From Octopus vulgaris (Eukaryota): 64,000 bases of DNA. Under the pieces are notes generated by a model, which saw only the letters and a program-made list of their open reading frames with translations, was not told the origin of the DNA and ran no database searches. Shown in pieces: positions 3,278 through 3,705 of the stretch; the stretch's first letter is position 1, and the number at the start of each line of letters is the position of its first letter. Position numbers and translations under genes: made by a program. Location of the stretch: assembly GCA_951406725.2 (NCBI GenBank), contig OX597821.1, positions 5,456,001-5,520,000 of the forward strand. The letters are read 5' to 3'.

Positions 3278-3280
<3 letters not shown>

Positions 3281-3702
3281 GATAAATCTCAGAGCGAGTT
3301 ATAAACAGTAGCGGTAACACATCGTGATGCATATTTGCCATTTGAATATGGCTAACCCATAAGGGTGGATGCTACTGTAGTTTGTTACCGCTACTGTTTA
3401 TAACTCGCTCTGAGATTTATCATTGTTTGATTTCACTGGAAAAAGTATATGTATTTGTGAAGGGATCTGACTTCTCATCGACAACCATGATTGTCACACG
3501 CTGATGAAAGGTAAACACCTTGAAACTCGGGTACGTGTGTATCATGTGTTGAAGACGGGGAGGATGACTCCCCTTCACAAATACTGACAGGACACAGATA
3601 GTGTGTCTATAGCCAGCTGGAGGAGATATCTTCCTGGGGCTACAAACTACAGTAGCATCCACCCTTATGGGTTAGCCATATTCAAATGGCAAAGATGCAT
3701 CA

Positions 3703-3705
<3 letters not shown>
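3278..3705 (+). mobile_element. Non-coding HHR-bearing element (PLE pLTR/retrozyme-like) with interleaved inverted repeats
   Basis: Perfect 42-bp IR 3278-3319/3383-3424; 62-bp IR 3324-3385/3642-3703 (1 mismatch); canonical HHR inside; flanked on both sides by (TA)n. Confidence 0.8.
3495..3539 (+). ncRNA. Type I hammerhead ribozyme, canonical core
   Basis: cacacg-CUGAUGA-aaggu(aaac)accuu-GAAA-cu(cg)gg-UA-cgugug; stem I extends to 3482-3551; predicted cleavage after GUA at 3533. Confidence 0.85.

What the first reader, a model, noticed from the sequence alone, without database searches (positions are those of the whole stretch)
3278..3705. Antisense copy of an end-to-start junction implies a circular or tandem ~325-nt ribozyme RNA
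Seen: the layout is A-B-A'-core(HHR)-B'. The reverse complement of 3278-3385 reads B' + GATG + A', that is, the unit's 3' end joined to its own 5' start. That junction is not present on the sense strand. Monomer = 3383-3703 plus 4 nt, about 325 nt. The HHR sits in a longer stem (GTATTTGTGAAGGG ~3451-3464 pairs with CCCTTCACAAATAC ~3571-3584). Inference: template switching during reverse transcription of a circular or multimeric RNA, as expected for a retrozyme.
Basis: partly seen in the sequence, partly recalled or inferred. Interest (0 to 1): 0.85.

Follow-up and report, generated by a model that had tools for sequence, protein, structure and literature searches.

The report
Penelope-style insertion of hammerhead retrozyme
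The 428-base stretch is one copy of an abundant 353-base repeat with a hammerhead ribozyme motif, and its back-to-back layout is the family's usual insertion shape, likely made by a Penelope-like retrotransposon, so the reversed junction by itself does not show a circular RNA.

Summary
The layout is real, but it is the ordinary footprint of a high-copy family: one 25-mer has 1,060 exact hits in this genome, control 0. The family unit is 353 nt. The 325-nt 'monomer' reflects a 28-nt deletion found only here. The end-to-start junction occurs in genomic DNA at 41 places at 99-100% identity and inside an arm in 45 of 63 sampled insertions, so it does not require a circle. Copies end at two fixed sites about 42 nt apart, mostly in (TA)n; 31 of 32 classifiable head-to-head insertions have one end of each kind. 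That is the published Penelope-like (PLE) signature of inverted 5'-truncated copy plus one-sided tail. The type I hammerhead is canonical, with compensatory changes between subfamilies. Verdict: a new member of the non-LTR retrozymes, likely PLE-mobilised. Circular versus linear tandem template is unresolved, and no autonomous partner was found by sequence in 100 PLE loci. This scan noted similar PLE-type insertions on other DNA.

The parts
3242..3277 (.). (TA)n target, left side
   Evidence: sequence; 78 of 95 family 3' ends abut (TA)n
3278..3319 (-). 42-nt 'tail' (unit positions 1-42); outer 3' end of the inverted arm, terminus S2
   Evidence: 100% complementary to 3383-3424; 25 family ends at exactly position 42
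3320..3385 (-). rest of the inverted arm: unit positions 288-353, with the end-to-start junction (GATG at 3320-3323)
3383..3385 (.). 3-nt microhomology shared by the two arms at the head-to-head joint
   Evidence: short overlaps or gaps are usual at family joints
3383..3706 (+). direct arm: one unit (positions 1 to about 349-352) ending at terminus S1
   Evidence: L001; 42 family ends at position 352
3434..3437 (+). site of a 28-nt deletion private to this copy, between two CACT repeats; removes a predicted hairpin
3451..3584 (+). long stem enclosing the ribozyme (14 bp, 3451-3464 with 3571-3584)
   Evidence: 4 of 14 pairs with changes on both sides across subfamilies
3486..3546 (+). canonical type I hammerhead: helix I 6 bp plus distal stem, core 3501-3507, helix II 5 bp, GAAA 3522-3525, helix III 2 bp with 4-nt loop, predicted cut after the GUA at 3531-3533
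   Evidence: 178 exact genomic hits of the 30-nt core; cleavage not tested
3705..3737 (.). (TA)n target, right side
   Evidence: sequence

Best explanation
This is a 5'-truncated, head-to-head insertion of a 353-nt non-coding repeat with a type I hammerhead motif (a non-LTR retrozyme), likely copied into a (TA)n site by the reverse transcriptase and GIY-YIG endonuclease of a Penelope-like element. Shown: copy number, unit size, two fixed 3' termini (S1 at unit position about 352, S2 about 42 nt further), one terminus of each kind per inverted insertion, (TA)n targets, short target duplications where flanks are unique, arms more alike within an insertion than between insertions, and arms crossing both the unit boundary and the ribozyme cut site. 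Inferred: both strands of the target are nicked; one 3' end primes cDNA at S1 and the other at S2, inside a tandem or circular sense RNA; both cDNAs stop early and are joined at their far ends through microhomology. Here the S2 cDNA was 108 nt and the S1 cDNA one unit long; the 28-nt deletion came during or after insertion. Whether the RNA was a circle or an uncut linear multimer is open (about even odds). This single-ribozyme copy is likely a dead end.
For: 1,060 exact hits of a 25-mer, control 0. Sample = 63 insertions holding 98 of the first 100 listed hits (contig 1 and start of contig 2, duplicates removed): 36 head-to-head by script, of which 31 S1+S2, 1 S1+S1, 0 S2+S2, 4 unclassifiable; 31 of 32 gives p 1.5e-8 against independent choice. 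78 of 95 3' ends abut (TA)n; 5 of 15 insertions without long TA flanks show direct repeats of 12-14 nt, partly overlapping the element ends. Arms of one insertion differ at 74 of 3,818 compared positions (1.9%) against a mean median of 5.3% to other insertions. The S1 arm reaches more than 10 nt further upstream than the S2 arm in 16 of 29 two-arm cases, this locus having the same asymmetry, which simple fold-back cannot give. An older subfamily (72-88% identical) and a distant 362-nt family show the same two termini; in the latter 5 of 5 inverted insertions with both ends at a terminus have one of each (read by eye). Literature: inverted 5'-truncated copy, 30-40-bp tail often at one end only, (TA)n targets (PMC8557442, passages); head-to-head pLTRs, 8-10-bp TSD (PMC3846280, passages); a purified PLE protein nicks and extends both strands and starts at two internal RNA sites that define the tail, using uncut RNA (PMC11167929, main text). 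Intact PLE ORFs with RT and GIY-YIG are abundant in this genome.
Against: No autonomous PLE shares sequence with the unit in 100 PLE loci (BLAST; profile search): every strong hit was another retrozyme copy lying beside a PLE, separated by simple repeats or host DNA where I looked. The most active PLE found (775-aa ORF) shows one 3' end and no clear tail. The tail (40-49 nt; about 57 nt in the second family) is longer than the published 30-40 bp. In 12 of 29 cases the two 5' ends lie within 30 nt of each other (4.3 expected; 0 of 20,000 permutations), which two independent cDNAs do not explain. 7 of 15 unique-flank insertions show no TSD. Rfam gave no hammerhead match. Nothing was shown at RNA level.
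Confidence: 0.85

Rival explanations
1. One reading: the template was specifically a covalently closed monomer made by hammerhead cleavage and ligation, copied by rolling-circle reverse transcription. This is a sub-case of the best explanation, not an alternative to PLE involvement.
For: 38 of 98 arms pass the cut site and 45 of 63 insertions pass the unit boundary without a seam. Units of one arm are homogeneous (27 differences in 1,616 positions), and 11 of 53 multi-copy insertions carry variants shared by their copies and seen in none of the other 104 insertions. The ribozyme and its stem show compensatory changes. Related mussel, coral and axolotl repeats are abundant circRNAs (PMC7229834, sections 14, 17 and passages).
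Against: Genomic dimers and a 9-unit array exist and can supply linear multimers; variants shared by subsets of units in that array point to DNA-level expansion. A PLE protein used uncut RNA in vitro. Only 1 of 9 Xenopus dimers self-cleaved (bioRxiv 10.64898/2026.07.22.740005).
Confidence: 0.45
2. Fold-back (self-priming): one cDNA starts at the tail, snaps back on itself and copies its own strand; the second end is then trimmed to S1 by the endonuclease.
For: 12 of 29 joints are nearly symmetric; self-priming was proposed for palindromic PLE joints (PMC3846280, passage). It would explain one tail per insertion.
Against: It requires the S1 arm to lie within the S2 arm; this fails in 16 of 29 cases and at this locus (S1 arm one whole unit, S2 arm 108 nt).
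Confidence: 0.08
3. L1-type twin priming by a LINE on a linear, ribozyme-cut monomer.
For: Inverted 5' segments with microhomology are a known L1 product (recalled, no call); LINE fragments lie in the window.
Against: No poly(A) ends; both arms end at fixed internal sites and overlap in unit coordinates; 5' ends do not pile up at the cut site (4 of 42 arms stop in that 11-nt bin, within the range of other bins).
Confidence: 0.03
4. Local misassembly, or two independent insertions side by side.
For: The strand-changing joint and the deletion form were not listed in contigs of 4 runs; PLE inverted structures are known to trouble assemblies.
Against: 36 of 63 sampled insertions have the same head-to-head form with the S1+S2 rule, each with its own joint; arms of one insertion share subfamily alleles; the two arms here differ at 1 position.
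Confidence: 0.04

Closest known systems
Metazoan non-LTR retrozymes (Cervera and de la Pena 2020, PMC7229834; e.g. mussel 350-390-nt repeats, axolotl Rtz_353)
   Same: Non-coding unit of about 350 nt, 41.9% GC, canonical type I hammerhead with 2-bp helix III and tetraloop, hundreds to thousands of copies, monomers to multimers, PLEs present in the same genome.
   Different: Here most copies are dispersed, 5'-truncated and often head-to-head; only 4 of 63 hold two ribozymes in one arm. The word 'inverted' does not occur in that paper's main text. Expression, cleavage and circles are shown there, not here.
Insertion units of endonuclease-bearing Penelope-like elements (Craig et al. 2021, PMC8557442; Arkhipova et al. 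2013, PMC3846280; Frangieh et al. 2024, PMC11167929)
   Same: Partial tandems, inverted 5'-truncated copy, tail at one end, AT-rich or (TA)n targets, short TSD, two internal 3' termini, hammerhead upstream of them.
   Different: No ORF; canonical and not minimal hammerhead; tail 40-49 nt; no matching autonomous pLTR found.
Retrozymes as non-autonomous PLE derivatives (Li, Clavereau, Pollet 2026, bioRxiv 10.64898/2026.07.22.740005; parts 1-3 of 5 read)
   Same: Same conclusion: retrozymes ride on PLEs.
   Different: Their evidence is co-occurrence and pLTR homology in Xenopus (24 of 57 families matched known TEs); here it is the insertion geometry, with no pLTR homology found.

Membership tests
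non-LTR retrozyme | canonical type I hammerhead (helix I about 6 bp, helix II about 4 bp, helix III 1-2 bp with small loop) | tested here: met
   definition from PMC4209133 passages. Core CTGATGA in 31 of 42 aligned copies, CCGATGA in 8. Rfam gave no hit.
non-LTR retrozyme | repeat unit of 150-450 nt, GC under 45%, found in tandem | tested here: met
   353-nt period, 41.9% GC; dimers and a 9-unit array in the family
non-LTR retrozyme | two complete hammerheads in tandem at the locus ('active' copy in Li et al.) | tested here: not met
   this locus has one; 4 of 63 sampled insertions have two or more in one arm. The locus is a family member but not an 'active' copy.
non-LTR retrozyme | no coding capacity | tested here: met
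   no frame of 100 aa or more inside 3278-3705 (one repeat-rich frame starts at 3676); no PLE protein match there
non-LTR retrozyme | self-cleavage of the transcript | not testable with these tools
   only indirect: conserved core and compensatory pairs
non-LTR retrozyme | expressed as monomeric linear and circular RNA | not testable with these tools
   only contigs were offered, which cannot show ends, strand or circularity
PLE-type insertion (non-autonomous) | head-to-head inverted 5'-truncated copy | tested here: met
   this locus; 36 of 63 sampled insertions
PLE-type insertion (non-autonomous) | short tail at one end only | tested here: met
   31 of 32 classifiable inverted insertions; length 40-49 nt (one 55), a little above the published 30-40
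PLE-type insertion (non-autonomous) | AT-rich or (TA)n target, short TSD | tested here: met
   78 of 95 ends at (TA)n; duplications in 5 of 15 insertions without long TA flanks; TSD not readable at this locus
PLE-type insertion (non-autonomous) | sequence homology to the pLTR of an autonomous PLE | tested here: inconclusive
   none in 100 loci taken from two searches dominated by two families, out of 6,136 and 30,321 first-look candidates
autonomous PLE | RT plus GIY-YIG ORF | tested here: not met

The most novel reading that the evidence does not exclude
This family is a circRNA parasite that has no pLTR relative left in its host yet is integrated by a PLE dimer in a strictly paired reaction: one subunit always primes at S1 and the other at S2 of the same circular 353-nt RNA, on opposite target strands. 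The 31-of-32 rule, repeated in a second family about 60% identical with a longer tail, would then be a genomic record of obligate two-site priming, and the conserved fold around S1-S2 a portable PLE recruitment signal.
Probability: 0.25. Interest if true: 0.6.

Novelty: new member of a known kind. Interest (0 to 1): 0.28.

Why it matters
As a single locus it is ordinary. The family is a clean natural data set for an open point: how PLE proteins make inverted, one-tailed insertions and whether they mobilise retrozymes. PLE mobilisation of retrozymes is proposed in print from co-occurrence and pLTR homology; here a canonical-hammerhead repeat carries the whole PLE integration footprint, with counts. 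A 353-nt template with two mapped termini and young intact PLE ORFs in the same genome make an in vitro test of circle versus linear template straightforward.

Tried and rejected
Rfam at gathering score: 0 hits in the window; at E up to 10 only hairpin-driven miRNA-type chance hits. Sequencing runs: no RNA holder listed on record; 20 of 24 listed runs hold the stretch, 14 of them guessed to be RNA, all contigs. Four runs laid on 3383-3703: the 3703-GATG-3383 joint is bridged in 4 of 4, including the large run of unknown kind, but contigs cannot tell tandem from circle; the ribozyme part was uncovered in one run; no strand-changing joint and no start or end pile-up was listed. Partner search: BLAST and nhmmer against 100 PLE loci found no shared pLTR; the retrozyme copies next to PLEs in L080, L216 and L078 were read and are separate insertions; L071 and L246 were judged from coordinates only. 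An apparent second terminus of the active 775-aa PLE (3900 vs 3929 in L258) was a (TA)n alignment artefact. Pile-up of 5' ends at the ribozyme cut: not seen. Private-variant test of circle versus linear template: not decisive. In one search the percent paired, cells with double change and covariation score beat 500 of 500 shuffles, but the number of pairs with double change did not (140 of 500 shuffles as high), one slid control (-2) had a similar covariation score, and the copies are related, so the covariation is a few subfamily-level events. L191 is an S1+S2 insertion that the script filed as single; it is left out of the 31 of 32. Paper searches for an octopus or cephalopod description (retrozyme+octopus; Penelope+octopus+transposable+hammerhead) and for paired two-site priming in non-autonomous elements returned nothing on this family in the listings; Repbase and Dfam could not be searched, and supplements were not read, so a repeat-library entry may exist. 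Look-ups of earlier findings by sequence and by place were blank.

Full report
Observation. The reverse complement of 3278-3385 reads 62 nt of the unit's end (1 mismatch to 3642-3703), GATG, and 42 nt identical to 3383-3424. The element sits between two (TA)n runs. A canonical type I hammerhead lies at 3486-3546 with the core at 3501 and the predicted cut after 3533, inside a perfect 14-bp stem. The unit folds with z -6.5. Rfam does not recognise the ribozyme.

Family. The window lies in a 2.8-Gb animal genome of 227 contigs; size and repeat content suggest an octopod mollusc to me, which is recalled and untested. The unit found 2,775 first-look candidates, 40 of them scored. A 25-mer near the 3' end has 1,060 exact hits and the 30-nt ribozyme core 178, both with control 0. 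Tandem copies have a period of 353 nt. The window copy lacks 28 nt between two CACT repeats, and that junction occurs once in the genome, so 325 nt is not a family size. The end-to-start junction is present at 41 genomic places at 99-100% identity over 107-108 nt (only 40 candidates scored) and inside an arm in 45 of 63 sampled insertions. It is the family's normal sequence.

Insertion geometry. I fetched the insertions behind 98 of the first 100 listed 25-mer hits (all of contig 1, start of contig 2; of two further contig-2 insertions one was held as L006 and one not fetched), removed 7 duplicate loci and mapped 63. Outer 3' ends fall at two sites: S1 (position 340-353, 42 at exactly 352) and S2 (40-55 into the next unit, 25 at exactly 42). 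36 insertions are head-to-head with both 3' ends outward: 31 have one S1 and one S2, 1 has two S1, none two S2, 4 are unclassifiable (p 1.5e-8 for 31 of 32). 78 of 95 ends abut (TA)n. Of 15 insertions without long TA flanks, 5 show direct repeats of 12-14 nt (partly overlapping element ends), 2 sit in (AAT)n, 1 shows 7 nt and 7 show none. The window locus is a typical S2-left, S1-right case with a 3-nt microhomology at the joint. An older subfamily has the same termini, and so has a distant 362-nt family with a tail of about 57 nt, where 5 of 5 inverted insertions with both ends at a terminus have one of each.

Template. Arms of one insertion differ by 1.9% against 5.3% to other insertions, so both come from one template lineage. 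38 of 98 arms pass the ribozyme cut site, and 5' ends are not enriched there (4 of 42), so the template was not a cut linear monomer. The S1 arm is the longer in 16 of 29 cases, as here, which excludes simple fold-back as the general route; but 12 of 29 joints are nearly symmetric, more than chance, and I cannot explain that. Circle and linear multimer both remain: units within arms are homogeneous and 11 of 53 multi-copy insertions share private variants, yet genomic dimers exist (4 of 63) and a 9-unit array shows signs of DNA-level expansion.

Ribozyme conservation. In 42 aligned copies (40 distinct) 87.5% of cells pair; helix II and the outer stem show changes on both sides between subfamilies, with the limits given under Tried and rejected. 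The second family carries U3-A8 in place of C3-G8 in 23 of 23 matched motifs, a variant already reported in Schistosoma PLEs (PMC4209133, passage). This fits selection for cleavage but does not show it.

Partner. The genome holds many intact PLE ORFs (781 aa and 775 aa open frames; RT and GIY-YIG by Pfam, the RT just under its cut-off; 76 of 76 scored hits identical for the second). One read in full has its own inverted 5' copy. None of 100 PLE loci shares sequence with the unit. PLE mobilisation is therefore inferred from geometry alone.

Comparison. Craig et al. describe partial tandems, an inverted 5'-truncated copy, a 30-40-bp tail often at one end and (TA)n targets as typical of PLEs (PMC8557442, passages). 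Arkhipova et al. give head-to-head pLTRs with 8-10-bp TSD and propose self-priming (PMC3846280, passages). Frangieh et al. show nicking and extension of both strands and two internal start sites that bound the tail, with uncut RNA as main substrate and no strand difference in start site (PMC11167929, main text). Cervera and de la Pena define non-LTR retrozymes, show circles in mussel, coral and axolotl and name PLEs as likely helpers (PMC7229834, sections 14, 17 and passages). Li et al. argue that retrozymes are non-autonomous PLE derivatives (bioRxiv 10.64898/2026.07.22.740005, parts 1-3 of 5). Supplements were not read.

Verdict. Real, well explained, and a new member of a known kind. The near-strict one-S1, one-S2 rule is the only point I did not find counted in the papers seen. 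Interest 0.28.

Noticed in passing
L078:1239-1790 and L264-L283: A second high-copy retrozyme-like family, 362-nt unit, about 60% identical and collinear with the first, with two termini about 57 nt apart and a U3-A8 hammerhead core in 23 of 23 matched motifs.
   Followed up: partly
L205:1900-5050 (G000:C2:14.086-14.090 Mb): A 9-unit tandem array of the family (352-nt period, about 87% to the young unit), ending at S1, not in (TA)n; a possible source of multimeric transcripts.
   Followed up: partly
L231-L260: A very young PLE family with a 775-aa open frame; 76 of 76 scored hits are identical over 573 residues, several as divergent pairs. A hammerhead-like motif with a CCGAAGA core lies about 140 nt before its 3' end (motif read by eye).
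   Followed up: partly
L061:606-1685: A 359-aa open frame without Pfam match upstream of the 781-aa RT-GIY-YIG frame of another PLE family.
   Followed up: no
window 50313-52117: Broken PLE copy, 53-59% identical to the 781-aa protein, with pieces on both strands.
   Followed up: no
window 61908-62060 (-): GIY-YIG fragment of a further PLE family, 35-41% identical to the two above.
   Followed up: no
window 558, 15244, 41191, 45428 (+): Further CTGANGA...GAAA motifs that may be minimal hammerheads of other PLE ends (regex only).
   Followed up: no
window 17726-19055 (-): Fragments of a LINE-type reverse transcriptase frame (type read by eye).
   Followed up: no
L149 and L151 (G000:C1:8.389 and 8.762 Mb): The same insertion with the same flanks 373 kb apart: a segmental or assembly duplication; counted once.
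   Followed up: no
family-wide: In 12 of 29 inverted insertions the two 5' ends lie within 30 nt of each other, far above the 4.3 expected; unexplained.
   Followed up: partly
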